The notes under the pieces were generated by a model. It was not told the DNA's origin, did not search any database, and worked only from the letters and a program-made list of their open reading frames with translations. The position numbers were made by a program, and so were the translations under genes. Shown here in pieces: positions 42,323-62,395 of a DNA stretch of 64,000 nt. Numbering within the stretch: position 1 is the first letter of the stretch; the number at the start of each line of letters is the position of its first letter. Source of the DNA: an uncultured Fidelibacterota bacterium (GTDB lineage Bacteria; Fidelibacterota; Marinisomatia; Marinisomatales; UBA1611); contig CACKSF010000001.1 in the NCBI GenBank assembly GCA_902602795.1, positions 5,601 to 69,600 on the forward strand. The letters run 5' to 3'.

Positions 42323-42397
42323 CGGGGTATAGCGTAGTCCGGTTAACGCGCCTGCTTTGGGAGCAGGAGATCGGGAGTTCAAATCTCTCTACCCCGA
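42323..42397 (+). tRNA. tRNA-Pro (TGG)
   Basis: Acceptor CGGGGTA/TACCCCG, anticodon arm CCTGC-TTTGGGA-GCAGG, T-arm GGGAG-TTCAAAT-CTCTC. Confidence 0.9.
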
Positions 42398-42399
42398 CA
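42355..42399 (+). repeat. attL core (inside the intact tRNA-Pro)
   Basis: CTTTGGGAGCAGGAGATCGGGAGTTCAAATCTCTCTACCCCGACA. Confidence 0.8.
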
Positions 42400-42426
42400 C
42401 TCGAGAATGCCAAATATCTCTCGACA

Positions 42427-42455
42427 AAAGCCCTGCTAGTAAGCGGGGCTTTTAC
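42427..42455 (+). terminator. rho-independent terminator after tRNA-Pro
   Basis: AAAGCCCTGC-TAGTAA-GCGGGGCTTTT hairpin plus T tract. Confidence 0.6.
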
Positions 42456-42520: not shown

Positions 42521-42735
42521 GCACCCCGCGAGTTGGGTCCCATCTACCCATAATTCCATTGGGACTCCTACAGAGGTTATTATAATATTTTCTTTAATCA
42601 TTATTTTAGCTACATTCAAATATCATCAGGAGTGGTTTCATATTTGAAACCCACCAACCGAGCCCAGATAAATCATGGTCACGGTGGTTAGAGCCTTAAA
42701 CGCTAGATGTGCCCAGGAAAATGGGAAACATGATT

Positions 42736-42775
42736 AGCCGCCTGATGTGCGGCTTTTTTCGTTTATAGACCTACC
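42736..42775 (+). repeat. junction repeat A, diverged copy (A0)
   Basis: AGCCGC-CTGATGT-GCGGCTTTTTTCGTTTATAGACCTACC: hairpin, T tract and GTTT..TAG box in the same layout as the A family. Confidence 0.45.
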
Positions 42776-42808: not shown

Positions 42809-43063
42809 ATGTCAAAAAATAAAAAACAACAATTAAAGGATATTAAGACTGAAGAATTAGATGTTAATGGTAATCCAATAGACCCTAATAGAGAATACAT
42901 TGGAAATAAAGTTAAAGTACCGATGGCATCTTTAAATTCATCTATTTATAAAACACCCACTACTATAATACTCAAAGGAAAACCAATAACGTCAGACAAA
43001 AAGAAGAAAGCAAAGTTACTTGAATTCATAAGTAGAGCCCCCATTAGTTTTGATTCAGAATAG
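42809..43063 (+). CDS. hypothetical lysine-rich protein
   Basis: ORF preceded by a strong SD (AAAGGAGA-N6-ATG). No motif recognised. Confidence 0.5.
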   Translation: MSKNKKQQLKDIKTEELDVNGNPIDPNREYIGNKVKVPMASLNSSIYKTPTTIILKGKPITSDKKKKAKLLEFISRAPISFDSE

Positions 43064-43240: not shown

Positions 43241-43289
43241 AAGCCCCACATTAGTGGGGTTTTTTTTTGTGGGATGATGGGTAGATTTG
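43241..43289 (+). repeat. junction repeat A1
   Basis: AAGCCCCACATTAGTGGGGTTTTTTTTTGTGGGATGATGGGTAGATTTG. Confidence 0.85.
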
Positions 43290-43363
43290 AACTTTAAGTA
43301 TTTTTTATTTAAGTATAATTTAACTATTATTAAATAATATTTAACCAAAATAGATTATAAAAT

Positions 43364-43858
43364 ATGATTAAACATTTACTATTACTTCTATTCATTGGAT
43401 TAGCTTGGGGGCAAGAAGACTTAGTAATTAAGAAAGCTGAAAGTAGCATTAAATTGAAAAATGGTCAAAAACTAATTATCAGATATACTAATGTGGAATC
43501 AAATGTAGTCCTTATCACTGAAGGAGAGTTTAAAAGCGTTGATAACGACTTTTTGATGATTAGTACTGAAAATGTAATTGCTGAAAAAATATCTCTACCA
43601 TCAATAACAAAGATTACTGTTCCATCAAAAATTCCAGCCAATATAAGTTTTATAAAAGGCTCTTGCTCTGGGGCTGGAATTGGTTTGATATTAATTGGTA
43701 TAATGGCTTATAACGACCCACTTAATTCTATAGCTGCACCTGGTTTTGCAATGGTGGGGGCTTTTTTAGGTGGTTTAGTAAGTTATATTGCTCCAAAATT
43801 TAGGAAAACTAAAGGCTACTTAATTCAAAATGATGAGTGGAAAATAGTAAATGACTAA
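43364..43858 (+). CDS. signal-peptide protein with C-terminal glycine-zipper membrane anchor
   Basis: MIKHLLLLLFIGLAWGQ signal; C-terminus GSCSGAGIGLILIGIMAY...VGAFLGGLVSYIA. Confidence 0.6.
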   Translation: MIKHLLLLLFIGLAWGQEDLVIKKAESSIKLKNGQKLIIRYTNVESNVVLITEGEFKSVDNDFLMISTENVIAEKISLPSITKITVPSKIPANISFIKGSCSGAGIGLILIGIMAYNDPLNSIAAPGFAMVGAFLGGLVSYIAPKFRKTKGYLIQNDEWKIVND

Positions 43859-44768
43859 ATACCTTATACTATCAATATTCATTGGGTTGGCTTGGGGGCA
43901 AGATTTCAATCAGAAAGGCTACTTAAGAAATTTAGAAGCATCAATTTGCATGAGCCATTGTGGTGCATATTACCTTGAGGACGAATTAGGATATTTTCTT
44001 AATTACATATCTGATGAAAATGATTCATTAAATTTAGAATATTATTTAAATAGATTCGTAAATATTGAGGGAGATTCAATTTCTTGTACCGAATGCATTG
44101 GCATTGATGTAATAAGAATTGATATTTCAAATGATTGTGATTTACCAGTTGATTGTTTTGCTCACCCCTGTTCAACAAGTAACTGTTTTTCTCATCCAAC
44201 TGCTGAATGTATCCCAAATTATTGTGGAGGCTGTTGGTCAGACTACTACTTAGATAGTGAATTAATAGAGTGTGAAGTTCCTGAAGGATGTATTGATTTA
44301 ACAGGAGTTGATTTCGGTGAATGTGAGATGGCTCTTGGCATCGGTTGGGTTAATAATAGCTGTGAATATATTTCAGGATGCGATTGGATTGTAGACAATG
44401 TGGATTTTAGTGAAGCCTTTTTTTCTTCTATGGATAGTTGTCAACAAACCTGTATGGTTTTACATAATGATGAAGACCCTTTATTTCCTAGCCATTATTA
44501 TATCTATAATAATTATCCAAACCCATTTAATCCTTTTACTACAATAAGATACTACTTACCAGAAGATAGGTTAGTAATTATCACGGTTTATGACTTGCTT
44601 GGAAATGTCATTAAACATTTAGCTGATGAGGTTCAAAGTTCTGGTTACAAATCAATCCAATGGAATGCTACAAACAATCAAGGCCAGCCAGTATCAGCAG
44701 GAGTATATCTCTACAGCATTGAGGCGGGAGAGTTCAGACAAATTAAAAAGATGATATTATTGAAATAG
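43851..44768 (+). CDS. cysteine-rich secreted protein with T9SS sorting domain
   Basis: Signal MTKYLILSIFIGLAWGQ, more than 20 Cys, C-terminus NYPNPFNPFTTIRYYL...GVYLYSIEAGEFRQIKKMILLK. 8-nt overlap with the upstream gene. Confidence 0.75.
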   Translation: MTKYLILSIFIGLAWGQDFNQKGYLRNLEASICMSHCGAYYLEDELGYFLNYISDENDSLNLEYYLNRFVNIEGDSISCTECIGIDVIRIDISNDCDLPVDCFAHPCSTSNCFSHPTAECIPNYCGGCWSDYYLDSELIECEVPEGCIDLTGVDFGECEMALGIGWVNNSCEYISGCDWIVDNVDFSEAFFSSMDSCQQTCMVLHNDEDPLFPSHYYIYNNYPNPFNPFTTIRYYLPEDRLVIITVYDLLGNVIKHLADEVQSSGYKSIQWNATNNQGQPVSAGVYLYSIEAGEFRQIKKMILLK

Positions 44769-44786
44769 AATTAGCTATATGCATTC

Positions 44787-44836
44787 AAGCCCCGCATATG
44801 TGGGGTTTTTTGTTTGTGGGATGATGGGTATATTTA
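44787..44836 (+). repeat. junction repeat A2
   Basis: AAGCCCCGCATATGTGGGGTTTTTTGTTTGTGGGATGATGGGTATATTTA. Confidence 0.85.
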
Positions 44837-44839
44837 TGG

Positions 44840-44950
44840 ATGGGATACGGGAGAACATTAGAAGAAAAAATAATTATTGGAGTTTTTTTAATAGGGATGT
44901 TAGCTTGGTGGGCTTACAACGAATATAAGATAGATAACCCAGATGAATAA
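44840..44950 (+). CDS. possible 36-aa single-TM peptide
   Basis: MGYGRTLEEKIIIGVFLIGMLAWWAYNEYKIDNPDE. Starts 4 nt after the A2 box, and its stop overlaps the next ATG (ATGAATAA). Below the ORF-track length cutoff. Confidence 0.35.
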   Translation: MGYGRTLEEKIIIGVFLIGMLAWWAYNEYKIDNPDE

Positions 44951-45191: not shown

Positions 45192-45196
45192 TTATT

Positions 45197-45256
45197 TAAG
45201 CTGATACGTCCAGTATAGTGTACTTCTGTCCTTTTAAGACATAAGGGACAAAAGAA
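45197..45256 (+). repeat. repeat B1
   Basis: TAAGCTGATACGTCCAGTATAGTGTACTTCTGTCCTTTTAAGACATAAGGGACAAAAGAA; ~85% identical to B2 at 53779-53839. Confidence 0.75.
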
Positions 45257-45377
45257 ATAAACGCCCCCCTATGCCACCTTCTCAAAGTAGTAGGGGTAGT
45301 ATTATATCTCAAAGATAACTTTCCCCTATAAAAAGGATTTTAAAAAACAATATTTATGGAGAAATGAAAGAAATGAT

Positions 45378-45521: not shown

Positions 45522-45872
45522 TAAGATGGGTATTTAAAAATCTTAAAAGATGTATTATATATTTTTAATTAAAATGAAATTTTAACCTTTATACATATAC
45601 CCCTCCCATTATAAACCAAAACAAAGTCCATACGCTCAAAGAATGCGTTTATAGTAAGTTAAATCTGATATTTATTCTCAACTTCCCCGACCCTCTCTTC
45701 TACCTTAAAATAAAATAATATCATTTTTTTTTCTTCATCTGTGAGTTGCAAATGATATAGTGTTTAGGTTTATATTTACTAGCCCAGTCTAACAATATCA
45801 GGTTAGAAAGAAGATGGAACAAGAGATGATTAATCGCACTCGAATAGGGTGTGAATAAAAAAGGCTATAAAG

Positions 45873-46115
45873 ATGAAACTAGGCAACAATTTCCTTATAT
45901 CCATAATGGAGAGACTCGATAGAATTGAGTCATAAATAAATAATCCAAAAGCAAATTCTCGCAAATTATTATCTATTAAAGATATTATTGATTTCTCTGG
46001 AATATCTGATCCCACCATAAGACGATCAATAAAAAGAGGGACACTAAAGGCATATAAGAAAGAAGGGAAGAAGTTGTTTCGAAGAGCAGATGTAGAAAAC
46101 TGGCTCAAAGAATAA
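45873..46115 (+). pseudogene. Xis/AlpA-type helix-turn-helix (HTH_17-like) gene interrupted by an in-frame TAA
   Basis: After TAA at 45933-45935 the same frame reads INNPKANSRKLLSIKDIIDFSGISDPTIRRSIKRGTLKAYKKEGKKLFRRADVENWLKE*, an excisionase-like HTH. There is no ATG/GTG/TTG after the stop. TAATG overlap with the primase gene. Confidence 0.5.
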
Positions 46116-46345
46116 TGGACTATCAACATTTTTTTGAGAATTTAGTGGGCGTTAAAAAAATCAAATGGTCAGGCAAACAAGGCACTGGATGCTGTCTTTT
46201 GCCTGATCACGATGATAGAAATCCGTCATTCTCATTCAACATTGAGACAGGTCAAAACTTCTGTCATTCTTGTGGTTGGAAAGGCAACGCATACACACTT
46301 GCCAAAGAGCTAAATATGGACAACCCTTGCCATATACTCAAATAA
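46115..46345 (+). CDS. CHC2 zinc-finger module of a DnaG-type primase
   Basis: CLLPDHDDRNPSFSFNIETGQNFCHSCGWKGNAYTL = CxxxH...CxxC zf-CHC2. Confidence 0.7.
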   Translation: MDYQHFFENLVGVKKIKWSGKQGTGCCLLPDHDDRNPSFSFNIETGQNFCHSCGWKGNAYTLAKELNMDNPCHILK

Positions 46346-46418
46346 TTGCAAATCTATCAAGCACAAGCCTAATAACACTATTAAAAGCCATTCTAGAGAC
46401 ATAGATGAGGTAGGAATC

Positions 46419-47012
46419 ATGAAGATGTATGAAGAACTAAAAGAAAGGTACGGAAACAGGATAAAACTCGGAGATAATTACAAGGATAAATACGTCGGAA
46501 AAAGTGATAAAGATGAGGCTGTTTTCATTTATCCAAAAGGCATCAAGATTCATAAGAAGTACTGGATTAAAGAAGCATCAATAGACACTTCTAATCAAAT
46601 CTTTATGATGGATGAATTGTTAGGTTTTGATAATTCTAAGCCACTCTACTTATTTGAAGGTGAAAAGGATGCTATAGCCTCAAAATTACAAGGAGTATCA
46701 TTCTTTTGCGGTGCTACTTCTATCCCAAAAAATATAGATGCTTTGTATGAGTTTGATGAAGTCGTACTCATATACGATAATGATGAAGCAGGTGTAAATG
46801 GTGCTAAAAAGGTAGCTGAACGGATTAAATCAGAATCACCAACAACCAAAGTACTAATTGCTCAATGGGATTCATCACTTCCAAAAGGATATGATGTTTA
46901 TGATGATGGTAAAAAGACTGGATTCGCCAAGGTAGATGAAGCCATTGCAAATACAATTATATATGATTTAAAAATACCAACAGAATTAGAAGGATTTACA
47001 ATTATGACATGA
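46419..47012 (+). CDS. Toprim-domain primase module
   Basis: LYLFEGEKDAIA (catalytic Glu) and VLIYDNDEAGVNGAKK (DxD). Ends at a TGA that is in frame with the following P-loop segment. Confidence 0.7.
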   Translation: MKMYEELKERYGNRIKLGDNYKDKYVGKSDKDEAVFIYPKGIKIHKKYWIKEASIDTSNQIFMMDELLGFDNSKPLYLFEGEKDAIASKLQGVSFFCGATSIPKNIDALYEFDEVVLIYDNDEAGVNGAKKVAERIKSESPTTKVLIAQWDSSLPKGYDVYDDGKKTGFAKVDEAIANTIIYDLKIPTELEGFTIMT

Positions 47013-47974
47013 AAAAAAGCAAGTAATACCGTTCCTAAACCAACAGAATGGATAATAGAAAATGTATTGCCTAAGGGATTTAATTCGTGTCTTGCAGGAA
47101 CGACTGGAAGTAAGAAATCTATGTGGGCAATCCAATTAGGTTTGTCAGTTGCGAATGGGAAAAAGACTTTTGTGGAAACCGTATCAAAGGTGGAAGTAGA
47201 AAGGTGTTATTTATTGATACGGAGATAGGGCAAGATGAATTACTTCGCAGGTATCACAAAATAAAAAGCAAAATAGATTGGAAAGGTGATGACAATATCA
47301 TAATGATGTCTAAAGGCGGAACAACGATGGACATTTGGGAACAAACAGAAAAAATGATTCAGGCGTATAGACCCGAAGTAGTCATCATTGATAGTATGTA
47401 TAATGCCACAAGTGTTTCAGATTTCTCCAAATCAACTGGGATGAGCAAGGTAACAGATGCTCTTGCTACTCTTAAAGATAAATACGGAGTTACTATTTTA
47501 ATTATTGCTCATTTCAATAAAGGTAATGATGAACAGGTAACTCATATAGATAGGATACAAGGTTCTGCAGTTTTCAAGAACTCTATTGAATTTCAAATAT
47601 GTATGATACAGACTAACATTGATGATTTCAATATCTTCCAAGTACAAAAGACTAGAGGAGTTCCTTTTGACAGATCTTACATTGGTCTTAAGTGGGATGA
47701 TTTTTGGTTTACTACAAAAGGTATCATTGAAGATATATCTGATTACCTTGTGACTGAACATAAGAAAAAAAAGTGGACTTCTGTATTGGAAGATTTGCCT
47801 GACAGGTTTGATACAAAGGATTGGCTGAATGTTTTTAATAGCAAGTTTGAGATGTCAGAAAGAACTGGAAAAGTTTGGCTTAAAGAGGTTAGTAGAACCC
47901 AAATGGTAGATAAGATTTCTCACGGAGTTTATGAGAAGAAACTTAAACTAATTGAAGAGAATGAAATTGATTAA
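47013..47974 (+). pseudogene. RepA/DnaB-like P-loop helicase (AAA_25-like), frameshifted
   Basis: Walker A segment ..CLAGTTGSKKSMWAIQLGLSVANGKK lies in the Toprim frame (47013-~47165). The remainder (VLFIDTEIGQDELLRRY.., VVIIDSMY Walker B, IIAHFNKG) lies in the frame of ORF 47123-47974. The shift maps to the gggAAAAAg run near 47158-47163. Confidence 0.65.
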
Positions 47975-48277
47975 TTGGTGGAGAGGTGTACTTCACTATT
48001 GCACTTTCTCTCTATTTATGATTGAAAGTGAAGATAGTGAAGATAATGAAGTATAGTTCTCTACTAATTAAACAGGAGATTAATAAGATATGCTGATAAA
48101 TAGGATAGAAACAGGCGGTGATGACTAAAGGCAGAGTGGACAACCGAGATGTTTGTTGGGGGTCTAAGGAGGAAAACCACTCTACCTCATTATCAAGTCT
48201 TCTATACTGCAAGACCAAGCATCTTTTAATATTAGGCATTTTAGAGCATCCTAACATTGACACCCATCACAAGGACT

Positions 48278-48472
48278 TTATATTGATTGGGAAGAGAAGA
48301 ATTTTAGTATCAGAACAAGTGGGTCAATTTTTCCAGTCATAATCATGTATACAAAAATAGAAATAGCTATGAGGATGATAAACATGCCTAAACATCCTAT
48401 GGCGAATAGTTTACTGATTTGGTTAATGGAGTATCTAACGAACTCGAAAAATATGGAAAGCCATTTAGACAT
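48278..48472 (-). CDS. small membrane protein
   Basis: 64 aa with a hydrophobic core LFAIGCLGMFIILIAISIFVYMIM. Confidence 0.4.
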   Translation of the reverse strand: MSKWLSIFFEFVRYSINQISKLFAIGCLGMFIILIAISIFVYMIMTGKIDPLVLILKFFSSQSI

Positions 48473-48495
48473 AGGATGCCTGGATGATTAATTAC

Positions 48496-48639
48496 TTATA
48501 CATCGTATGCAAAACCAAGACCACATAAGGCTACAATAATTGCATATCTATAGCTACCGCTATCTATTGATCTTTGCAGAGTCATTCCAAATAGGATTGC
48601 AAACATGAGTATACCCATCAATCTCCATCTTGGCAACAT
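48496..48639 (-). CDS. possible 47-aa membrane peptide
   Basis: MLPRWRLMGILMFAILFGMTLQRSIDSGSYRYAIIVALCGLGFAYDV. Fills the gap between co-directional small TM genes; below the ORF-track cutoff. Confidence 0.3.
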   Translation of the reverse strand: MLPRWRLMGILMFAILFGMTLQRSIDSGSYRYAIIVALCGLGFAYDV

Positions 48640-48669
48640 CCTTCTTTTTTTTAACCAATCAATCATTAA

Positions 48670-49017
48670 TTATTGGTCTCTAAAAAGTTTAAACCCAACA
48701 ATACTAAATGTGATATTGAATATTGCTATAATACCAAGCCAATTTGTTTTTTCACCTTTTTTTGTTGGTTTACTGAAAAGTAATGGAAGCCCAACTTTGG
48801 TTCGTTCGATACCTTTTTCTTTTTTTAATTCTCCAGCCCATTTGTACCAATCTTTATCATTATCAAAATCAACATTTGACTTTTCATATTCCCAATCTAT
48901 TTCACTGGTATCCAACCATTTATGTACTGGACTAAATCCTAGTCCAAAAACAGTTATCAGGAAGACCAAAACAGAACCAGTCCCAACCATAACTAATAAT
49001 TTTTGTTTGTCATTCAT
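48670..49017 (-). CDS. two-TM membrane protein
   Basis: 115 aa with N- and C-terminal TM helices around a charged loop. Confidence 0.5.
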   Translation of the reverse strand: MNDKQKLLVMVGTGSVLVFLITVFGLGFSPVHKWLDTSEIDWEYEKSNVDFDNDKDWYKWAGELKKEKGIERTKVGLPLLFSKPTKKGEKTNWLGIIAIFNITFSIVGFKLFRDQ

Positions 49018-49025
49018 AATTAAAA

Positions 49026-49325
49026 TTAATAATTATCTTTCCTTCTTGTCAGAGTACCTATCCAGGCATGAAAGTTTTTCTTGTTCGCATCAGAATAATA
49101 ATAATAAACAGCTACCAATAATATGCTTAATGGTATCGTAAAGACTAAAAACATTAGAAGAAGTACATTCGCAATGTCTTGTTCAGATTTATTTTTAAGT
49201 AATTTTGGAATCCCTGCTTCGCCTCTTTCATATTTTCCCCAATCTTTTAAAAATTGTTTTCTTTTTACCCAACCAAGGCATAGGACTATAATAAATAAAA
49301 TGATGGTAAATGGTGATAATTCCAT
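49026..49325 (-). CDS. two-TM membrane protein
   Basis: 99 aa with TM helices FTIILFIIVLCLGWV and VLLLMFLVFTIPLSILLVAVYYYY. Confidence 0.5.
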   Translation of the reverse strand: MELSPFTIILFIIVLCLGWVKRKQFLKDWGKYERGEAGIPKLLKNKSEQDIANVLLLMFLVFTIPLSILLVAVYYYYSDANKKNFHAWIGTLTRRKDNY

Positions 49326-49385
49326 TAACTAATTTAAGATATTTAACAATAGGTTCTTGTAACACATATACTACAGGAGTAATTT

Positions 49386-49622
49386 ATGAGTATGAGTGAA
49401 GTTAATAAAGGTGGAAGACCTAGAGAAGAACCCACCAATGTACGCAGTGTTAGATTGCCCAACAGGATTTGGAAATTGGTACAAAAGGCATCGAAAGGCA
49501 GTCGTTCAGTCAATGAATATATTCAAACAATAATTGAGAATGATTTGATTAAACGGAAAATGCTAAAGAAGTCAGAACGGAAAAAACTATCCTCTAAAAC
49601 CTCTACGAAAAGGAGTCAGTAA
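49386..49622 (+). CDS. ribbon-helix-helix (CopG/Arc-like) DNA-binding protein
   Basis: GGRPREEPTNVRSVRLPNRIWKLVQKAS....SVNEYIQTIIENDL fits a beta-alpha-alpha RHH pattern. SD AGGAG is present; TAATG overlap with the integrase. Confidence 0.5.
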   Translation: MSMSEVNKGGRPREEPTNVRSVRLPNRIWKLVQKASKGSRSVNEYIQTIIENDLIKRKMLKKSERKKLSSKTSTKRSQ

Positions 49623-50734
49623 TGGCGATACTTAAAACTCGTAGAGATAAATGGTATGAAAGAGTGATATGGTTTGTAAATGGTAAGTTTATCGAAAAAC
49701 AAATACCATTAAGAACCTCATCAAAAGTAACTGCAAGAGAGAGAATTGCAGAGGTCAAAAAGGTAGAAGGAGATATTAAACAAGGGATGGAGTTTTCATT
49801 CCCTTGGCTATCCAATTTTGCAAAGACCAAAGTAAAACGGTTCACCATTAAAGAAGCAGTTGATCAATGGTTATTAAAACGGAAGGGTAAAGTTGCGAAT
49901 TCTACATTGGATTTGAATGAGGATGGTTTGAATTATTTTCTCAAGTTCATGGGCAATGCAAATCCTATCGAAACAATCTCAACAAGTAATGTGGAACAAT
50001 TCATTGATTGGTTGGAAGGAAGGGGTTTAAGCAAGGCAAGTATTAATATACATTTACGAACTATAAAATCGATGTTTAGGTATTATCTAAATGTTGGTAG
50101 ACTGACTTCAGTTCCTCATATCCAACAATTGAGGATTCCAAAAACAGAACCTATCTACATCACAGATAATGAGTTTCAATCCATAATGGAATTAGATTGG
50201 TTAGATGATTTTTACAAGCTTGTATTCCTTTTATATCGTGAGACTGGAATGAGACTAAACGAGCATATGATTTCAGTACTTGATGGAGATTGGGTTGACA
50301 TACCTAATACATCCAAAGGTAAGGTAGGAAGAAACACCCAATTAGATAGACCAATGCAATCCATCTTCAATGAATTGAAAGAATGGTTAAGCAGTGGTTA
50401 TGGTTCAAGGCTTAAGACACCTGATGACCATATCAGTAAGATGTTTAAGAAAGCCTTAAGAAGTATAGGTGCAGATGAAAGTAAACATTTCCATTCACTT
50501 CGGCATACATTTGCAGTAAGAAGATTGATACAAGGAACATAAATATATGATTTAAAATTGTTGATGGGTCATAGTTCAGTCACAACTACTGAAGTCTATT
50601 CAAATATGAATCTTAAACGAGTGTCTCAAGGTTTTCCAACCATAGTCACAAGATATGTAAATATGACTAAAATTGGAAATTTGGACACAAAAACCTTGGA
50701 CACAATAGCATTACCAATGACCTATGTGACGTAA
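49622..50734 (+). pseudogene. tyrosine recombinase/integrase with an in-frame TAA before the catalytic Tyr region
   Basis: YRETGMRLNE (Arg I) and HSLRHTFAVRRLIQGT (HxxR), then TAA at 50540-50542. The same frame continues IYDLKLLMGHSSVTTTEVYSNM (His, Tyr nucleophile) to the stop at 50732-50734. Confidence 0.8.
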
Positions 50735-50763
50735 TAAATTAGGTTACAGCTTCCAAGCGGATA

Positions 50764-50808
50764 CTTTGGGAGCAGGAGATCGGGAGTTCAAATCTTTCTA
50801 CCCCGACA
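50764..50808 (+). repeat. attR core (orphan 3' half of tRNA-Pro)
   Basis: CTTTGGGAGCAGGAGATCGGGAGTTCAAATCTTTCTACCCCGACA (one C>T difference). No 5' tRNA half precedes it. Confidence 0.8.
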
Positions 50809-50835
50809 ATGAGGCAACACACTTGTCTCTTCAGA

Positions 50836-50870
50836 AAAGCCTCGTCAAACGATGAGGCTTCTTTGTTTTC
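50836..50870 (+). terminator. terminator after the orphan tRNA-Pro 3' half
   Basis: AAAAGCCTCGTC-AAAC-GATGAGGCTTCTTTGTTTT. Confidence 0.55.
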
Positions 50871-50910
50871 ATACTTAGTAATAAATGTTCATTAATACCC
50901 GTTTGGGGGA

Positions 50911-50992
50911 CACACCCTATGGGCGTATGGCATTTTAGGAATGAACGTAAATCCTCATTCCACGCAAAGTATTTGAAAAGAAAGTCCTTGGA
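50911..50992 (+). repeat. repeat C1 (long form)
   Basis: CACACCCTATGGGCGTATGGCATTTTAGGAATGAACGTAAATCCTCATTCCACGCAAAGTATTTGAAAAGAAAGTCCTTGG; shares its core with C2-C4. Confidence 0.7.
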
Positions 50993-51035
50993 GTAAGTTT
51001 AAATATTCTAATAATCTATTAACAAGGCCTTTACT

Positions 51036-51701
51036 TTATGGTGCTTCCCAAATAATTGGATATATAGATTCACCAAAGATACCTACGCTACGAGAATAGA
51101 AGATTTTTAAATCTTTACTAGAAAAAGGATTCTTTTGAGATTCTCCGTCAAGTGTATTGCCAAAATAATTGGAGCCATACTGTTCAATCGACTTTTTGTG
51201 CCTAATTACTCTTATTGGGTGCACATCTGCTTTTAAGGCTGCTATTATGTCGGAATCTGCATCTCCGTAATATAAATCAAGCTTTAAAGAAGTCATTTTA
51301 CGGTGTTTAGTAGTATGTTTGATGCCATCTATTTTTTCATTTGGACAGAAAAATAAATTTTTATTTTTCTCTATTTTCAAATCAAGTTTTTTAGATAAAA
51401 AGCGTGCTAAAGTTTCTCCATTTTCTCCTGATCTTGCTGTTATAAAAAAAAGGTTATGTCCATTTTCTGAAAAATAGTTTATTAGCTCTACCGTTGGTTC
51501 TATAAAAACTGATAATTTTTCATCTTGTTCATTAACCCAGCTATAATCAATTGGGTTTTTTTTATTTTGAGGTATATTTTGAAAAACATCTCTAGAAAAT
51601 AATATTGTATCATCAATATCAAATCCTACATTTAATATGCCTGAACTTGCTAAAGAGAGTGATTTTATAAATGTTATTATAATTAATAGTTTTGAATACA
51701 T
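51036..51701 (-). CDS. class B acid phosphatase (AphA-like, HAD superfamily)
   Basis: Signal peptide; GFDIDDTILFS (DDDD motif I), FFITARS, YYGDADSDI, matching the AphA layout. Confidence 0.75.
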   Translation of the reverse strand: MYSKLLIIITFIKSLSLASSGILNVGFDIDDTILFSRDVFQNIPQNKKNPIDYSWVNEQDEKLSVFIEPTVELINYFSENGHNLFFITARSGENGETLARFLSKKLDLKIEKNKNLFFCPNEKIDGIKHTTKHRKMTSLKLDLYYGDADSDIIAALKADVHPIRVIRHKKSIEQYGSNYFGNTLDGESQKNPFSSKDLKIFYSRSVGIFGESIYPIIWEAP

Positions 51702-51808
51702 ATAGTTAAAAGGTTTATTTAAGGGTTAGTAATTACTTAAAAAGACACAAAATTATCTTTAACAAATTAAAATAAAAGCTAATCTTTCTACTCAAAAATT
51801 ATTAGTAC

Positions 51809-52027
51809 CTAATAAAGATTATTTTCTCTTTCATAATCGTTAAGCATTGCTAGAAGGTTCATAATAAAACTTTCATATTGCTTTAGGCGTATAGATAATT
51901 TGTCGCCTGTATCTTTTTTTAATTTATAATCCTTTTTAAGTGATTTATTTTCTTGCAAAATGTCAGCTTCAAAAATTGGTTTGTTGAGAATATTATTAAC
52001 AGAGTCATTGAAGTTGTCTTTATCCAA
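51809..52027 (-). CDS. small coiled-coil protein, unknown function
   Basis: 72-aa ORF, charged/helical; no motif. Confidence 0.35.
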   Translation of the reverse strand: MDKDNFNDSVNNILNKPIFEADILQENKSLKKDYKLKKDTGDKLSIRLKQYESFIMNLLAMLNDYERENNLY

Positions 52028-52103
52028 TGATTACTTTATTGTATGGATATGTGATTGGTAACATAGTTAAATCCTGTTGGCCAGAAGAGGAATAGGCATC
52101 ATC

Positions 52104-52152
52104 AAGCCCCACATTCGTGCGGTTTTTTGTTTGTGGGATGATTAGTAGATTA
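52104..52152 (+). repeat. junction repeat A3
   Basis: AAGCCCCACATTCGTGCGGTTTTTTGTTTGTGGGATGATTAGTAGATTA. Confidence 0.8.
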
Positions 52153-52235
52153 ATTTATTTACTTATTGCTAATTTACTTGAACTTAATTATTATTCATAT
52201 TTACTTAACTATTATTAATTAATCACCATTTACAA

Positions 52236-52760
52236 ATGCGCAAATATATATTCTTACTTTTAATTACTGGAACCGTTTGGGCACAAACGGGTTTAGATAA
52301 ATTAGTTTTTAAAAGGGGTGCTTATTATCAAGGAAAATATGCAAACACCGATAATAAAATTACATACTTATTTGAACCACAGGCAGTTTTGGATGCAAAA
52401 AAAGATGCAAAAAAATGGATAGCTTACCCACTATTAGTAGGACTTACATTCGCCTCATCAATATATGGTACTATGACGATTGCCAGAGAAGAGCCTTGGG
52501 AAAGCCTCCCAGCAATGATAGGAATTAGCACTGCTAGTTTAGCTTTACCATACATTAGTTTAAATAATTCTGATAAAAACCAAATTGAAAAACTAAGTAA
52601 GCAAGTTTATGATATTGAATTATATAAAGAAACTTTTTCGGAAGAATTCATAAAAAATAATATCATAGGTTTAGGTCTGTTAGGTTTGGCTGCTGCTGGA
52701 GGATATATTTATTTTATTTCAACTTTTACTTTGAATGATGACTTTTATTTCGGACCGTAG
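52236..52760 (+). CDS. signal-peptide protein with C-terminal multi-TM region
   Basis: MRKYIFLLLITGTVWAQ signal and three hydrophobic segments. Same architecture class as 43364-43858. Confidence 0.55.
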   Translation: MRKYIFLLLITGTVWAQTGLDKLVFKRGAYYQGKYANTDNKITYLFEPQAVLDAKKDAKKWIAYPLLVGLTFASSIYGTMTIAREEPWESLPAMIGISTASLALPYISLNNSDKNQIEKLSKQVYDIELYKETFSEEFIKNNIIGLGLLGLAAAGGYIYFISTFTLNDDFYFGP

Positions 52761-52775
52761 TGCAGTTATTTGGTC

Positions 52776-52824
52776 AGCCCTATATTTGTGCGGCTTTTTG
52801 TTTGTTGGGTGATGGGTAGATTTG
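52776..52824 (+). repeat. junction repeat A4
   Basis: CAGCCCTATATTTGTGCGGCTTTTTGTTTGTTGGGTGATGGGTAGATTTG. Confidence 0.8.
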
Positions 52825-52975
52825 GATATGCTTTTCTACTATACAAAATTAATATATTATCTATGGGCTTTGGTATTACCCTTATTATATTTTATTTTTC
52901 AAATAATGGATTAGGTTCCTATTATTTCTATCTTAATCAATAATATATATAAAAAAACAATAGTATAAATGACAC

Positions 52976-53698: not shown

Positions 53699-53778
53699 TT
53701 AATTTTAATGGTGAGTTTGTTGATACCAAGAAGATGCTATTGTTTAAATAAATATGTAAGTAAGTCTACAGGTTAGTT

Positions 53779-53839
53779 TAAGCAGGTACGTTCAGTATAA
53801 TGTCCTTCTGTCCTTTTAGTACTTGAAGGGACAAAAGAA
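53779..53839 (+). repeat. repeat B2
   Basis: TAAGCAGGTACGTTCAGTATAATGTCCTTCTGTCCTTTTAGTACTTGAAGGGACAAAAGAA. Confidence 0.75.
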
Positions 53840-53846
53840 CAACTTT

Positions 53847-53897
53847 CTACACACATATTCGTTGGGTTTTTTGTTTGTGGAATGATGGGTATATTTT
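53847..53897 (+). repeat. junction repeat A5 (eroded hairpin)
   Basis: CTACACACATATTCGTTGGGTTTTTTGTTTGTGGAATGATGGGTATATTTTG. Confidence 0.75.
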
Positions 53898-53900: not shown

Positions 53901-54134
53901 ATGAGAGGAGAATTAAAATTCTTAGCAGGGTTTGCTATTGGCATAGCAATAGGCGCAGCAACTGATAATTTAGGTATAGGAATTGGTATCGGTATTGCTT
54001 TTGGTTCTGCATTATCCCAAACTAAAAACGAACAGAAGAGTATTAAATCAGATTCAAGTGAAGAGGATATATTAATTGATTTCAACCACATGAATAGAAG
54101 AAAAAGAAAAGCCAAGAATGATGAAAAAGAGTAG
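53901..54134 (+). CDS. small glycine-zipper membrane protein
   Basis: FLAGFAIGIAIGAATDNLGIGIGIGIAFGSAL followed by a charged tail. The ATG lies 3 nt after the A5 box. Confidence 0.55.
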   Translation: MRGELKFLAGFAIGIAIGAATDNLGIGIGIGIAFGSALSQTKNEQKSIKSDSSEEDILIDFNHMNRRKRKAKNDEKE

Positions 54135-54180
54135 AGCCCCATATTCGTGGAGTTTTTTTTTGTGAGATGATGGTTAAATC
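54134..54180 (+). repeat. junction repeat A6
   Basis: AGAGCCCCATATTCGTGGAGTTTTTTTTTGTGAGATGATGGTTAAATC. Confidence 0.75.
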
Positions 54181-54410
54181 TATTGATGCCTTGAATTAAA
54201 AATTCATAATTGTTTCCAGAGCTATTAAACTTATTATCTTCAAAAATTTCTAAAACCTTAATTTATTATTTAACAATATTTAATTTATAATTAATTTAAA
54301 TCAATGTTAACTTTATCTTTATTAATAATTAACAGCGAATTTATCAATATTTTATGTTCATTATTTTTAGGTATAATGGATCATAAATATTTTACCTTGT
54401 TATATATATT

Positions 54411-56057: not shown

Positions 56058-56153
56058 ATGTAAAATGTATATTTTACAAATAAATCTAAAATTAATAACG
56101 ATAGATGATGTTCAATTAGTCTGATTTCTAAACTGCCATCATCTTATATTTTA

Positions 56154-56198
56154 TTAATCCTCATTCCCTACAAAGTATTTGAAAAGAAAATCCAAAGT
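56154..56198 (+). repeat. repeat C2
   Basis: TTAATCCTCATTCCCTACAAAGTATTTGAAAAGAAAATCCAAAG. Confidence 0.7.
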
Positions 56199-56206
56199 TT
56201 TTAATT

Positions 56207-56228
56207 CTTGTGGCGATGGTTAGATTTA
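56207..56228 (+). repeat. junction repeat A, right half only
   Basis: TTGTGGCGATGGTTAGATTTAA directly after C2. Confidence 0.6.
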
Positions 56229-56274
56229 AATATGAAAAACACAAAGTTAGTAATAGGAGTAGTAGAATTTTTAT

Positions 56275-56320
56275 AAGCCCCACATTCGTGGGGTTTTTTG
56301 GGAGGATGATGGTTAAATTA
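56275..56320 (+). repeat. junction repeat A7
   Basis: AAGCCCCACATTCGTGGGGTTTTTTGGGAGGATGATGGTTAAATTA. Confidence 0.8.
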
Positions 56321-56336
56321 AAATTATCTGGTCATT

Positions 56337-57379: not shown

Positions 57380-57564
57380 TTTTTTGTTTTTGAAAATTAA
57401 TTTAAAATTTAAAGTATTTATTGATATTGGTATTAATATTACAAAAACACAAAATACTTTCATTAAATATTAAAGAAAATAAATAGTATTAATAAAATAA
57501 AAATTAAAAAGTCAATTTAGGGGAAACTAGGTATTTTATTTAAATAGAAATATCTTTGTGTATC

Positions 57565-57614
57565 AAGCCCCATATTCGTGTAGTTTTTTATTTGTAGGTT
57601 GATGGGTAAATTTT
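57565..57614 (+). repeat. junction repeat A8
   Basis: AAGCCCCATATTCGTGTAGTTTTTTATTTGTAGGTTGATGGGTAAATTTT. Confidence 0.75.
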
Positions 57615-57626
57615 AAAGTGCTTTTT

Positions 57627-59021: not shown

Positions 59022-59034
59022 AAATATTTTAAAC

Positions 59035-59140
59035 GCAAAACTCTATATTAGTGTTTTTTTGTTTGTGTTAATCTTAATTCCTCAAAAAGTATTTAAAAGA
59101 AAGTCCAAGGTTTGTTGTTTGTGGTATGATTTGTATATTT
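59035..59140 (+). repeat. junction repeat A9 split by repeat C3
   Basis: GCAAAACTCTATATTAGTGTTTTTTTGTTTGTG | TTAATCTTAATTCCTCAAAAAGTATTTAAAAGAAAGTCCAAGGTTTGTT | GTTTGTGGTATGATTTGTATATTT. GTTTGTG is present on both sides of C3 (59068-59116). Confidence 0.75.
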
Positions 59141-59150
59141 TTGTTGAAAA

Positions 59151-59660: not shown

Positions 59661-59712
59661 AAAAACCCCGCATTCGCGGGGTTTTTTGTTAGTGGAATGA
59701 TTGTTAGATTTG
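59661..59712 (+). repeat. junction repeat A10 (perfect hairpin with compensatory changes)
   Basis: AAAAACCCCGCATTCGCGGGGTTTTTTGTTAGTGGAATGATTGTTAGATTTG. Confidence 0.8.
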
Positions 59713-59715
59713 ATA

Positions 59716-61353: not shown

Positions 61354-61408
61354 AAATACTTTCCATTTATTTGTGAAGTTTTTTGTTTATGAGATGATTG
61401 GTAAGTTT
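61354..61408 (+). repeat. junction repeat A11 (degenerate)
   Basis: AAATACTTTCCATTTATTTGTGAAGTTTTTTGTTTATGAGATGATTGGTAAGTTTT. Confidence 0.6.
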
Positions 61409-61646
61409 TACTTTTAGTTACAATTTCTCTTTCCCGATAGTAATTTTTCCAATGATCGAAACCTTCAGAGCCTATGTTAGAAAGCATATTAAATACTTTT
61501 TTTATATTGCCCTCATATTAGCTATAAAGGAATGGGCAGATTTGTTTAGAGGTGATGAGTTAGATTTATTGAGGTTGATAGGAAACAGTGCGTTAGCATT
61601 TTATTTTTGGGGTTTATCAGTAGGAAAATTTGAATTTAGAGAATAA
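61398..61646 (+). CDS. small two-TM membrane protein
   Basis: The true start is probably the internal Met (MIETFRAYV..). TM helices YFFYIALILAI and ALAFYFWGLSV. Confidence 0.4.
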   Translation: MVSFTFSYNFSFPIVIFPMIETFRAYVRKHIKYFFYIALILAIKEWADLFRGDELDLLRLIGNSALAFYFWGLSVGKFEFRE

Positions 61647-62346: not shown

Positions 62347-62395
62347 TAATTCACACCCTATACACAAAGTATTTGAAAGGATAATTCGAAGTTTC
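62347..62395 (+). repeat. repeat C4 (short form)
   Basis: TTAATTCACACCCTATACACAAAGTATTTGAAAGGATAATTCGAAGTTTC. Joins the CACACCCTAT and CAAAGTATTTGAAA segments that are 41 nt apart in C1. Confidence 0.65.

What the first reader, a model, noticed from the sequence alone, without database searches (positions are those of the whole stretch)
43262..43289. The conserved half of the repeat is not the hairpin: tandem TGGGWWGA units ending in TAnnTTTG, placed 3-25 nt before start codons
Hairpins are intact in A1, A2, A7 and A10. A10 (CCCCGC/GCGGGG) and A0 (GCCGC/GCGGC) show compensatory changes relative to A1 (CCCCAC/GTGGGG). In A3-A6, A8, A9 and A11 the stem is eroded while the downstream box GTTTGTGGGATGATGGGTAGATTTG stays recognisable. 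The box contains a tandem 8-mer (TGGGATGA TGGGTAGA). It ends in TAGATTTG / TATATTTn, which equals the Bacteroidetes-type -7 promoter element TAnnTTTG. Start codons follow within 3 nt at 53901 and 59716, within ~3-10 nt for small ORFs after A2 and A4, and within ~10-25 nt at 57627 and 59151. That would imply leaderless or near-leaderless transcripts. CCCACA in the left hairpin arm can also pair with TGTGGG in the box, giving an alternative fold. An inverted partial copy (CCCATCTACCCAT, 42539-42551) lies next to attL. The box could be a shared promoter or regulator site forming a cassette regulon, a recombination core, or both.
Basis: partly seen in the sequence, partly recalled or inferred. Interest (0 to 1): 0.6.

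Follow-up and report, generated by a model that had tools for sequence, protein, structure and literature searches.

The report
Terminator-promoter junction repeat between gene cassettes
A roughly 50-base sequence, made of a transcription stop hairpin followed by a probable promoter that sits three bases before the next gene's start codon, separates single genes in a variable island of a marine Marinimicrobia (SAR406) genome and in at least 48 related genomes. Genes appear to be swapped between genomes at this sequence.

Summary
The repeat is real. The window holds 11 co-oriented copies, all between 43.2 and 61.4 kb and none in the first 42 kb. A further 236 copies occur in 108 loci from 48 species-level genomes, essentially all Candidatus Marinimicrobia, so the host is not Bacteroidetes.

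The consensus is AGCCCCACATTCGTGGGG-TTTTTTGTTTG-TGGGATGATGGG-TAGATTTG-GAT-ATG. The hairpin plus U-tract lies a median 22 nt after the upstream stop codon and folds like an intrinsic terminator. The T-run plus box travels with the downstream gene.

The strongest result is positional. In 59 of 205 copies an ATG that opens a real ORF lies exactly 3 nt after the TAnnTTTG-like 8-mer, and in 88 copies it lies within 9 nt. This fits a promoter that gives leaderless or short-leader mRNAs.

The cassettes are single genes (median spacing 854 nt) with diverse functions. Homology breakpoints between genomes fall on the element ten times more often than expected.

The closest known analogue is the PeSL promoter/stem-loop cassette of T4-type phages. 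There is no integron-type attC or IntI.

Not supported: a box better conserved than the hairpin (p=0.58 in the window), the alternative fold, and the inverted partial copy. Promoter activity and transcription start sites remain inferred.

The parts
43241..43290 (+). Copy A1. Hairpin 43244-43259 (CCCCAC/GTGGGG), T-run 43260-43268, box 43269-43289. The next long ORF starts at 43364.
44786..44836 (+). Copy A2, 20 nt after the stop of the T9SS cargo gene 43851-44768. An ATG at 44840 lies 3 nt after the box and opens a 36-aa membrane peptide conserved in L058 and L114.
52103..52153 (+). Copy A3, with one stem mismatch. Its hairpin is the right end of a 1.1-kb segment (50988-52121) that is absent from the relative MED648. 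Its box is shared with MED648.
52775..52824 (+). Copy A4, 16 nt after the stop of gene 52236-52760. An ATG at 52828 (3 nt after the box) opens a 28-codon ORF.
53847..53897 (+). Copy A5, with an eroded stem. An ATG at 53901 (3 nt after the box) opens a 77-aa glycine-rich membrane protein.
54134..54182 (+). Copy A6. It overlaps the stop codon of 53901-54134, and its -7-like element is degenerate (TAAATCTA).
56275..56321 (+). Copy A7. It has a perfect hairpin, and its box has a 3-nt deletion at GTTTG.
57564..57615 (+). Copy A8. An ATG at 57627 opens a T9SS cargo gene (464 aa).
59099..59143 (+). Copy A9, consisting of T-run and box only. It is preceded by the second repeat (S-module) instead of a hairpin. 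An ATG at 59151 opens a SnoaL-like gene.
59662..59713 (+). Copy A10. The hairpin is CCCCGC/GCGGGG, a compensatory variant. An ATG at 59716 (3 nt after the box) opens an adenylate cyclase gene.
61361..61409 (+). Copy A11, the most eroded copy.
56197..56236 (+). Weak box behind an S-module (TTGTGGCGATGGTTAGATTTAAATATG). Homology with MED648 (L020, 93.5%) ends right at this ATG.
50940..50987 (+). S-module, the second repeat (consensus TTAATCCTCATTCCCCGCAAAGTATTTGAAAAGAAAGTCC). Further copies lie at 56150-56193, 59068-59107 and 62350-62394. It replaces the hairpin or sits between the T-run and the box.
42323..42398 (+). tRNA-Pro, the left border of the variable island. Its 3' half (42348-42432) is repeated at 50757-50841.
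45830..50841 (+). Mobility module of an integrative element. It carries a primase Zn-ribbon (46115), Toprim (46419), AAA_25 (47123) and a frameshifted tyrosine integrase (49622-50734), followed by a partial tRNA-Pro. Copies A1 and A2 lie in its cargo part (42.4-45.2 kb).

Best explanation
The repeat is a composite terminator-promoter junction that separates self-contained single-gene cassettes in the flexible, tRNA-linked islands of Marinimicrobia.

Step 1 (structure shown, function inferred). The GC hairpin plus the TTTTTTGTTT tract ends transcription of the upstream gene as an intrinsic terminator.

Step 2 (inferred from position). The same T-tract together with GTGGGATGATGGG-TAGATTTG acts as a promoter. 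TAGATTTG serves as the -7/-10-type element and the T-tract as the upstream element. RNA polymerase would start about 4 nt after the 8-mer. In about 30% of copies that nucleotide is the A of the ATG, which gives a leaderless mRNA. In most other copies it gives a leader of less than 60 nt, sometimes with an AGGAG motif.

Step 3 (breakpoints shown, mechanism inferred). The junction is nearly identical in front of unrelated genes and across species. It therefore offers about 50 bp of portable homology. Recombination between copies inserts, deletes and reshuffles cassettes, and each cassette arrives with its own promoter and terminator.

Step 4. Integrative elements that target tRNA-Pro carry such cassettes as cargo and may deliver them to the island.
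For: Family and host:
- 11 window copies and 236 copies in 108 loci from 48 assemblies, all Marinimicrobia or short unassigned contigs.

Terminator:
- 9-bp stem plus tetraloop, -14.2 kcal/mol, z=-4.2, followed by a U-tract.
- 81% of hairpin copies follow a co-oriented ORF, with a median of 22 nt after the stop codon.
- Alternative hairpins keep the pairing (CCCCGGTCACCCGGGG, CCCCGCCCAGTAGCGGGG).
- 64% of boxes abut a stable hairpin, against 11% of control T-runs.

Promoter:
- The distance from the 8-mer to the first ORF-opening ATG peaks at exactly 3 nt (59 of 205), and 88 copies have 9 nt or less.
- The N-termini at that ATG look genuine and unrelated: signal peptides, GNAT acetyltransferase and serine recombinase starts.
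- With spacings of 10-30 nt, 17 of 35 have an AGGAG/AAGG motif before the ATG, against 6 of 28 core genes.
- In Flavobacterium the sigma-A box TAnnTTTG lies at -12 to -5 (PMC9723704), within 1 nt of the register seen here.
- No promoter-like motif lies upstream of the box.
- The T-run+box stays with the downstream gene behind at least five different upstream sequences.

Cassettes:
- 64 of 66 multi-copy loci are co-oriented, with a median spacing of 854 nt.
- The 107 proteins behind boxes fall into 89 Pfam families.

Recombination:
- 41% of homology ends between genomes lie within 10 nt of an element, against 3.9% at random.
- The window differs from MED648 by cassette order and by a 1.1-kb insertion that ends at the A3 hairpin.
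- Homology with L020 ends at the ATG behind a box.
- The SnoaL-like cassette (59151) sits in at least 5 contexts in metagenomes, with junctions inside the element.
Against: - No transcript data exist. The transcription start site, promoter activity and termination are all inferred.
- The upstream TTTG lies 12 or 16 nt from the 8-mer, not the roughly 19 nt I recall for Bacteroidetes promoters.
- TAnnTTTG precedes only 12% of genes without the element in these loci, against 7% for the reverse-complement control. It is therefore not shown to be the general promoter motif of this phylum.
- The invariant spacer TGGGATGATGGG is not explained by a plain promoter. It may be a protein-binding site or simply shared ancestry.
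- Three window copies (A1, A3, A6) are 74-230 nt from the next long ORF.
- Some 'different contexts' in short-read MAGs could be assembly joins across a 50-bp repeat. However, a single-cell genome (AG-404-J18) and a long-read MAG (LRMED-174) also show arrays.
- Copies from orthologous cassettes are not fully independent counts.
Confidence: 0.65

Rival explanations
1. The element is a site-specific recombination site, working like an integron attC or attI. A dedicated recombinase would cut at a fixed point (around TTTTTTGTTT|G) to insert and excise cassettes, and any promoter activity would be secondary.
For: - Arrays are co-oriented and made of single-gene units with integron-like cassette sizes.
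- Gene content is diverse and integron-like, including GNATs and small unknown proteins.
- In hairpin-only copies, similarity ends sharply after GGGGTTTTTTGTTT in 11 of 32 cases.
- Box-only copies start at the GGGG/T-run boundary in 30 cases.
- The array lies next to a tRNA and a tyrosine recombinase.
Against: - There is no attC architecture: a short perfect stem, no R''/L''-L'/R' pairs and no GTTRRRY core.
- The only recombinase in the window is a frameshifted integrase whose repeat is the tRNA-Pro 3' end, not the element.
- No recombinase family recurs among array genes.
- Junctions also occur at the ATG, inside the box and at the hairpin start, as expected for homologous exchange or decay.
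- A recombination site does not explain the fixed 3-nt register to start codons.
- The sharp limits coincide with the functional ends of a terminator U-tract and of a promoter.
Confidence: 0.12
2. The box is an operator or a promoter for a dedicated regulator or alternative sigma factor. On this view all the cassettes form one co-regulated set, for example switched on under one condition. The invariant TGGGATGATGGG would be the protein-binding site.
For: - The spacer between the T-run and the -7-like element is conserved at 85% although promoter spacers normally drift.
- TAnnTTTG is not clearly the general promoter motif of these genomes.
- The element is confined to the island and absent from 42 kb of core genome.
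Against: - The genes are functionally unrelated.
- No regulator gene is consistently linked to the arrays.
- In L179-L181 the same gene keeps only TTTGTATATTTTTG and has lost the TGGGATGAT half, so that half is dispensable at least there.
- The conservation can also be explained by repeated recombination between copies.
- This rival is compatible with the main explanation rather than opposed to it.
Confidence: 0.1
3. The box acts in RNA. It would be a shared 5' untranslated leader (a translation enhancer or processing site) of transcripts that start upstream or read through the hairpin, and the hairpin would be a stabiliser rather than a terminator.
For: - Core genes of this genome mostly lack Shine-Dalgarno motifs (6 of 28), so unusual initiation signals are conceivable.
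- The box lies at a fixed distance from the ATG.
Against: - The hairpin is followed by a 10-nt U-rich tract, which is the classical terminator arrangement.
- Nothing promoter-like lies upstream of the box, and what lies upstream is variable.
- The box adds no RNA structure.
- When the ATG is further away it is preceded by its own AGGAG in half the cases.
- The box 3' end is a perfect TAnnTTTG.
Confidence: 0.08
4. The element is a selfish miniature mobile element of the REP, MITE or Correia type. It would spread by transposition and only incidentally carry terminator-like and promoter-like sequences.
For: - Copy number is high, with near-identical copies across species.
- Contigs often break at the element.
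- A second short repeat (the S-module) appears inserted into the element between duplicated GTTTGTG at 59053-59122.
Against: - There are no terminal inverted repeats, no target duplications and no linked transposase.
- Copies lie between genes and are co-oriented with them, in fixed register with stop and start codons.
- Copies are absent from the core genome.
- The two halves occur separately in functionally sensible places.
Confidence: 0.05

Closest known systems
PeSL (promoter-early stem-loop) regulatory cassettes of T4-type phages (Arbiol et al. 2010, PMC2839356; Comeau et al. 2014, PMC4122927)
   Same: - It is a short conserved intergenic motif that combines a stem-loop terminator with a promoter.
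- It is concentrated in hyperplastic regions and flanks small genes of mostly unknown function.
- Insertions, deletions and replacements between related genomes have their breakpoints in the motifs.
- The cassettes bring their own promoter and terminator.
   Different: - The present element is in bacterial chromosomes, not phages. In IMG/VR there is one full copy and a few hairpin-only copies.
- There is no sequence similarity to PeSLs.
- The order is fixed (hairpin, then promoter), whereas in PeSLs the stem-loop lies inside or around the -35/-10 boxes.
- PeSLs carry an E. coli-type sigma-70 promoter plus a Shine-Dalgarno sequence. This element has a TAnnTTTG-type 8-mer and is often leaderless.
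- The same sequence is shared by at least 48 species.
- PeSL promoter, terminator and mini-circles were shown experimentally. Nothing here has been.
Integron cassette arrays and CALINs (attC clusters without an integrase)
   Same: - Arrays are co-oriented and made of single-gene cassettes of a few hundred to 1500 bp.
- Gene content is diverse and largely unknown.
- A conserved repeat lies between every pair of genes, as VCRs do in Vibrio superintegrons.
   Different: - There is no attC secondary structure or GTTRRRY core, and no IntI, attI or Pc.
- Cassettes appear to carry their own promoter, whereas integron cassettes are mostly promoterless.
- Junction positions are spread over the element rather than lying at one fixed point.
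Bacteroidetes sigma-A promoters (-7 TAnnTTTG, -33 TTTG)
   Same: - The box ends in TAGATTTG or TAnnTTTn.
- The implied start site is 4-5 nt after the 8-mer, as in Flavobacterium where the box lies at -12 to -5 (PMC9723704).
- A TTTG lies upstream.
- The host belongs to the same FCB superphylum.
   Different: - The upstream TTTG is 12 or 16 nt away, not about 19 (the Bacteroidetes figure is from my own knowledge).
- The whole 31-nt sequence is conserved, not only the two motifs.
- Leaderless mRNAs make up 3.7-5.5% of transcripts in Bacteroides and Flavobacterium (PMC7366714, PMC9723704), against about 30-40% of the genes behind this box.
- The motif is not clearly general in these genomes.
Correia elements of Neisseria and other intergenic repeats (REP/BIME, BOX, RUP). 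Comparison from my own knowledge.
   Same: They are short, abundant intergenic repeats that can supply promoters and terminators to neighbouring genes.
   Different: - Those elements have terminal inverted repeats or palindromic units and occur in both orientations all over the genome.
- This element has neither feature.
- It is confined to variable islands and lies in fixed register with genes.
Tycheposon-type tRNA-targeting integrative elements and additive flexible genomic islands of marine bacteria. Comparison from my own knowledge.
   Same: - The variable island begins at a tRNA gene.
- A partial tRNA repeat is present.
- A small element with a tyrosine integrase and a primase/helicase carries cargo genes next to the tRNA.
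   Different: As far as I know, those systems are not described as having a conserved junction sequence between every cargo gene.

Membership tests
PeSL-type composite promoter-terminator cassette | One short conserved intergenic motif that holds both a stable stem-loop and a promoter | tested here: inconclusive
   The stem-loop is shown (-14.2 kcal/mol, z=-4.2; 64% of boxes abut a hairpin against 11% of controls). The promoter is inferred only from the TAnnTTTG-like 8-mer and the 3-nt register to ATG. No activity data exist.
PeSL-type composite promoter-terminator cassette | Concentrated in hyperplastic regions and flanking small variable genes | tested here: met
   All 11 window copies lie in the 18-kb island and none in 42 kb of core genome. 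Median spacing is 854 nt. The 107 proteins behind boxes fall into 89 Pfam families.
PeSL-type composite promoter-terminator cassette | Indel and replacement breakpoints between related genomes lie in the motifs | tested here: met
   41% of homology ends lie within 10 nt of an element against 3.9% at random.
PeSL-type composite promoter-terminator cassette | Sigma-70 -35/-10 consensus promoter with a Shine-Dalgarno sequence, in a T4-type phage genome | tested here: not met
   There is no TTGACA/TATAAT pair at 16-18 nt. Many starts are 3 nt from the box and have no SD. The host is a bacterial chromosome, and the element is almost absent from IMG/VR.
PeSL-type composite promoter-terminator cassette | Excised mini-circles formed by recombination between flanking motifs | not testable with these tools
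   This needs outward-facing read pairs or PCR on environmental DNA.
Integron / attC array | attC site: imperfect palindrome with R''-L'' and L'-R' boxes and a GTTRRRY core | tested here: not met
   The hairpin is a perfect 6-9 bp stem with a 4-6 nt loop. The sequence after it is GTTTGTG, not GTTRRRY.
Integron / attC array | Integron integrase (IntI) with attI and Pc at the head of the array | tested here: inconclusive
   The only tyrosine recombinase (49622-50734) is frameshifted, lies inside an element bounded by tRNA-Pro repeats, and matches only generic Phage_integrase models. IntI-specific features were not examined. No integrase family recurs among array genes.
Integron / attC array | Co-oriented array of single-gene cassettes | tested here: met
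   64 of 66 multi-copy loci are co-oriented. The interquartile range of spacing is 496-1555 nt.
Bacteroidetes-type sigma-A promoter | TAnnTTTG 8-mer ending 4-5 nt before the transcription start | tested here: inconclusive
   The 8-mer is present, and the A of the ATG is the 4th nt after it in 59 copies. The start site itself was not measured.
Bacteroidetes-type sigma-A promoter | TTTG around -33, about 19 nt upstream of the 8-mer | tested here: not met
   In the consensus the nearest TTTG motifs end 12 and 16 nt before TAGATTTG.
Bacteroidetes-type sigma-A promoter | The motif is the general housekeeping promoter of the genome | tested here: inconclusive
   TAnnTTTG lies upstream of 28 of 225 genes without the element, against 16 of 225 for the reverse-complement control. 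Few core operon starts are available in the window.
Intrinsic (Rho-independent) terminator | GC-rich stem-loop directly followed by a U-tract, shortly after a stop codon on the same strand | tested here: met
   (median 22 nt after the stop codon). Pairing is kept by compensatory variants.
Leaderless mRNA | Transcript 5' end at the A of the start codon | not testable with these tools
   Only the promoter-to-ATG geometry is available. The window's cassette protein is not on record in the assembly index.
MITE / REP / Correia-type repeat | Terminal inverted repeats or palindromic units, target duplications, both orientations | tested here: not met
   There are no TIRs. Copies are co-oriented with genes and occur only between genes.

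The most novel reading that the evidence does not exclude
Marinimicrobia may have a phylum-wide gene-cassette platform that works without an integron integrase. On this reading every flexible gene is packaged as promoter, often leaderless ORF, then terminator. The nearly invariant 50-bp junction would be the exchange site through which cassettes move within and between species, delivered in part by tRNA-targeting integrative elements. It would be a cellular counterpart of phage PeSL shuffling and a functional alternative to integrons.
Probability: 0.3. Interest if true: 0.8.

Novelty: new variant of a known kind. Interest (0 to 1): 0.65.

Why it matters
Marinimicrobia (SAR406) are among the most abundant uncultured bacteria of the dark ocean, and nothing is known experimentally about their promoters or about how their flexible genome is built.

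- If the inference holds, this element gives a concrete and testable promoter and terminator for the phylum.
- It would also give a large predicted set of leaderless genes in a lineage whose relatives rarely use them.
- It would explain how single genes are gained, lost and expressed at once in streamlined marine genomes.
- As far as I know, this principle has been shown only for T4-type phages.

There is also a practical point. Assemblies break at this element, so knowing about it helps in binning and scaffolding the variable islands of these genomes.

Tried and rejected
- Rfam at gathering threshold: only two tRNAs and a SAM-I/IV riboswitch, with nothing on the repeat.
- Sigma-70 and terminator consensus scan of the island: promoter-like sites were at chance level, and the scan detected only some of the hairpins.
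- Alternative fold of the left hairpin arm with the box: not favoured.
- Inverted partial copy at 42542-42551: chance level.
- Possible copy at the window end (63975-63998): it is a different T-run followed by GGGGGACA, like the sequence near the att sites.
- Phage origin: three IMG/VR scans gave one full copy and four hairpin-only copies, and the other pattern matches lack the element.
- Pattern matches outside Marinimicrobia (Aliinostoc, Dorea, an archaeon, Verrucomicrobiae, Saccharimonadales) are chance hits without the full element. Three short contigs labelled Flavobacteriaceae, Bacteroidota or Alphaproteobacteria carry true copies and are probably misbinned.
- Looking up the 77-aa cassette protein in the assembly index, to find other contexts or transcript-like contigs: not on record.
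- Testing whether TAnnTTTG, or TTG-N-TAnnTTTG, is the general promoter of the genome: inconclusive.
- Shine-Dalgarno use: weak in core genes (6 of 28), so the SD argument for short leaders is only modest.
- Recent cross-species transfer: only 6 segments of 300 bp or more are at least 95% identical between different species-level assemblies. That is too few to separate transfer from binning error.
- Literature search for a prior description in Marinimicrobia/SAR406: none found in the searchable library.
Full report
**1. What is in the window**

The finding's coordinates (43262-43289) read TTTTTTTGTGGGATGATGGGTAGATTTG. This stretch is the right half of a roughly 50-nt unit. At A1 the unit consists of a GC hairpin (43244-43259, CCCCAC-ATTA-GTGGGG), a T-run, and the box GTGGGATGATGGGTAGATTTG.

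A profile built from the copies finds 11 members in the window. All are on the + strand and all lie between 43241 and 61409. There are none in the first 42 kb. The 20-mer box with up to 3 mismatches gives 5 matches against 0.01 expected.

The region starts right after tRNA-His and tRNA-Pro. It contains an integrative element bounded by a repeat of the tRNA-Pro 3' half (42348-42432 and 50757-50841). That element carries a primase, an AAA_25 protein and a frameshifted tyrosine integrase. The rest of the island encodes unrelated small genes:
- T9SS cargo proteins
- an esterase
- an acyltransferase
- a thioesterase
- a SnoaL-like protein
- an adenylate cyclase
- a GNAT acetyltransferase

**2. Where else it occurs**

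I scanned one genome per species of GTDB with a degenerate box pattern. The profile finds 236 copies in 108 of these loci, from 48 assemblies.

Almost all assemblies are named Candidatus Marinimicrobia or Neomarinimicrobiota. The rest are 'uncultured bacterium' MAGs or short, probably misbinned contigs. Pattern hits in other phyla lack the full element.

The window shares 87-93% nucleotide identity with contigs of MAG MED648.

The consensus over all copies is (ATCA)AGCCCCACATTCGTGGGG TTTTTTGTTTG TGGGATGATGGG TAGATTTG GAT ATG.

**3. The hairpin half**

As RNA the hairpin forms a 9-bp stem with a tetraloop (-14.2 kcal/mol, z=-4.2) followed by UUUUUUGUUU.
- In 81% of hairpin-bearing copies a co-oriented open frame of at least 50 codons ends just upstream, with a median distance of 22 nt between stop codon and hairpin.
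- Other hairpins occupy the same place and keep the pairing: CCCCGGTCACCCGGGG, CCCCGCCCAGTAGCGGGG, and CCCCGC/GCGGGG in window copy A10.
- 64% of boxes abut a stable hairpin, against 11% of control T-runs.

This is the anatomy of an intrinsic terminator of the upstream gene.

The canonical hairpin is also a conserved module of its own. About 30% of its copies have no box behind them. In those copies similarity most often ends right after GGGGTTTTTTGTTT.

**4. The box half**

I measured the distance from the end of the 8-mer (TAnnTTnn) to the first ATG that opens an ORF of at least 40 codons.
- The distribution has a sharp peak at exactly 3 nt (59 of 205 copies).
- 88 copies have 9 nt or less.
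- The window contributes four cases at 3 nt: 44840, 52828, 53901 and 59716.

The proteins that start at this ATG are unrelated to each other from residue 2 onwards and begin like real N-termini, with signal peptides and GNAT or serine recombinase starts.

When the ATG is 10-30 nt away, 17 of 35 copies have an AGGAG/AAGG motif before it, against 6 of 28 core genes.

The T-run plus box remains attached to the downstream gene whatever precedes it. The upstream partner can be the canonical hairpin, another hairpin, a second repeat, or unrelated sequence.

Nothing promoter-like lies upstream of the box, and the box adds no RNA structure.

In Flavobacterium psychrophilum the sigma-A box TAnnTTTG occupies -12 to -5 (PMC9723704). 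With the A of the ATG as +1, the 8-mer here occupies -11 to -4. I therefore read the T-run+box as a promoter whose start site is at or just before the start codon.

This is inference from geometry. No transcript ends were available.

Two points do not fit a textbook Bacteroidetes promoter.
- The upstream TTTG is 12 or 16 nt from the 8-mer rather than about 19.
- TAnnTTTG precedes only 12% of genes without the element in these loci, against 7% for the control.

Leaderless mRNAs are rare in Bacteroides (3.7% of 5' UTRs under 10 nt, PMC7366714) and in Flavobacterium (5.5%, PMC9723704). A 30-40% share among box-driven genes would therefore be unusual.

**5. Cassettes and recombination**

- In 64 of 66 loci with two or more copies, all copies point the same way. 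Median spacing is 854 nt, which is one gene.
- The 107 proteins behind boxes match 89 different Pfam families. They are a flexible gene pool, not a functional regulon.
- Between genomes, 41% of homology ends lie within 10 nt of an element, against 3.9% for random positions.

Individual cases:
- MED648 joins the sequence after the partial tRNA-Pro directly to box A3 and its gene. The window has an extra 1.1 kb there, and that segment ends with the A3 hairpin.
- Homology with another MED648 contig (93.5% over 1.6 kb) stops at the ATG behind a box.
- MED648 holds window cassettes in a different order.
- A metagenome search with the SnoaL-like cassette protein (59151-59633) found the gene in at least five contexts. 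Homology to the window begins at the T-run of A9 and ends within A10.
- In more distant versions of that cassette, the gene keeps only TTTGTATATTTTTG before its start.

Junctions occur at several places: the hairpin/T-run boundary, the T-run/box boundary, inside the box and at the ATG. This fits homologous exchange between copies better than one fixed cleavage site.

Caveat: short-read MAGs could contain false joins across a 50-bp repeat. A single-cell genome and a long-read MAG show the same arrays.

**6.

The title claim is that the box, not the hairpin, is the conserved half. It is not supported as stated.
- In the window, identity to consensus is 0.77 for the hairpin, 0.82 for the box and 0.92 for the T-run+GTTTG.
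- Hairpin versus box gives p=0.58.
- It is true that one substitution breaks pairing, so 6-7 window stems are imperfect while every box is recognisable.

Other points:
- 'A0' is the terminator of a SAM-I/IV riboswitch.
- The alternative fold is not favoured.
- The inverted 10-mer near the tRNA is at chance level.
- The 'tandem 8-mer' has no support beyond the sequence itself.
- The promoter, leaderless and cassette-boundary reading is supported.

**7. Comparison with known systems**

The closest described system is the PeSL of T4-type phages. These are conserved intergenic motifs made of a strong early promoter and a stem-loop terminator. They are concentrated in hyperplastic regions, and recombination between them shuffles small genes and can release mini-circles (PMC2839356 sections read; PMC4122927 abstract).

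The present element works like a PeSL but is not one.
- It has no sequence relation to PeSLs.
- It lies in a cellular chromosome.
- Its order is fixed, with the hairpin before the promoter.
- It has a non-sigma-70 type motif and frequent leaderless starts.
- One sequence is shared by at least 48 species.

It resembles integron arrays in layout but fails the attC and IntI criteria. It fails the criteria for MITE/REP-type repeats.

I found no earlier description in the searchable literature. That search covers open-access text only.

**8. Verdict**

The best explanation is a composite terminator-promoter junction that makes each island gene a self-expressing, exchangeable cassette (confidence 0.65).

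What remains unexplained is the near-invariance of TGGGATGATGGG and of the hairpin sequence itself. This may reflect continual recombination between copies, a bound protein, or both.

I rate it a new variant of a known kind, with interest 0.65.

Noticed in passing
window 42618-42741 (+), ORF 42809-43063: A SAM-I/IV riboswitch (49.5 bits against a gathering score of 41.1) with its own terminator (42736-42754) precedes an 84-aa ORF with no Pfam match. It lies inside the cargo part of the integrated element. Homologous riboswitch regions occur in L085, and in L177 next to a different cassette.
   Followed up: partly
window 42348-42432 and 50757-50841; genes 45830-50734: An integrative element of about 8.4 kb sits at tRNA-Pro. 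It carries a split primase (Zn-ribbon 46115-46345, Toprim 46419-47012), an AAA_25 protein and a tyrosine integrase. The integrase is interrupted by a frameshift (49622-50542, continuing in 50558-50734). GGGACA-type direct repeats flank both att regions.
   Followed up: partly
window 50940-50987, 56150-56193, 59068-59107, 62350-62394; also L008, L011, L020 (4 copies), L080, L101, L114: A second conserved repeat of about 40 nt has the consensus TTAATCCTCATTCCCCGCAAAGTATTTGAAAAGAAAGTCC. It replaces the hairpin in front of boxes. At 59053-59122 it sits between two copies of GTTTGTG, as if inserted into the main element. Its function is unknown.
   Followed up: partly
window 45195-45260 and 53777-53842; L011 2542-2723: A third repeat of about 66 nt (76% identity between the window copies) contains the hairpin GTCCTT...AAGGGAC. 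It is also present in the relative MED648.
   Followed up: no
window 43364-43416, 43851-43903, 52236-52288; many loci: Unrelated secreted proteins behind the box share a signal peptide, M-x-(R/K)-Y-x-x-LLLFIGLAWGQ, that is conserved at the nucleotide level. Truncated remnants of it (GATATGATTAATCGCATTAC...) precede other genes. The shared unit therefore sometimes extends into the coding start.
   Followed up: partly
window 44494-44773 and 58747-59026: The C-terminal T9SS sorting domains of two otherwise different cargo genes are 79% identical in DNA over 280 nt. They match many loci at 68-83% identity, usually followed by ...TTTCTACAACATCAAGCCCC and the hairpin.
   Followed up: no
L093 418, L097 890 and 7039, L101 2362, L032 1691: In several genomes a box with a degenerate 3' end (TAGATATT) abuts the stop codon of a convergent gene that ends ...LFGTPFAGD*. 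These boxes are left without a gene to drive, and the junction lies inside the -7-like element.
   Followed up: no
L123, L125, L126, L127 (IMG/VR contigs; L127 is from a 56.6-kb contig): The exact canonical hairpin plus TTTTTTGTTT, without the box, occurs in contigs classed as viral. These may be phages or mobile elements of Marinimicrobia that use the same terminator.
   Followed up: no
window 63975-64000: The window ends with a T-run followed by GGGGGACA, like the sequence next to the att region at 50900. Another integrated element may begin there.
   Followed up: no
window 1-42000: Core genes mostly lack Shine-Dalgarno motifs (6 of 28) and have A-rich sequence before the ATG, as in Bacteroidetes. 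Cassette genes with short leaders carry AGGAG-like motifs more often (17 of 35).
   Followed up: partly
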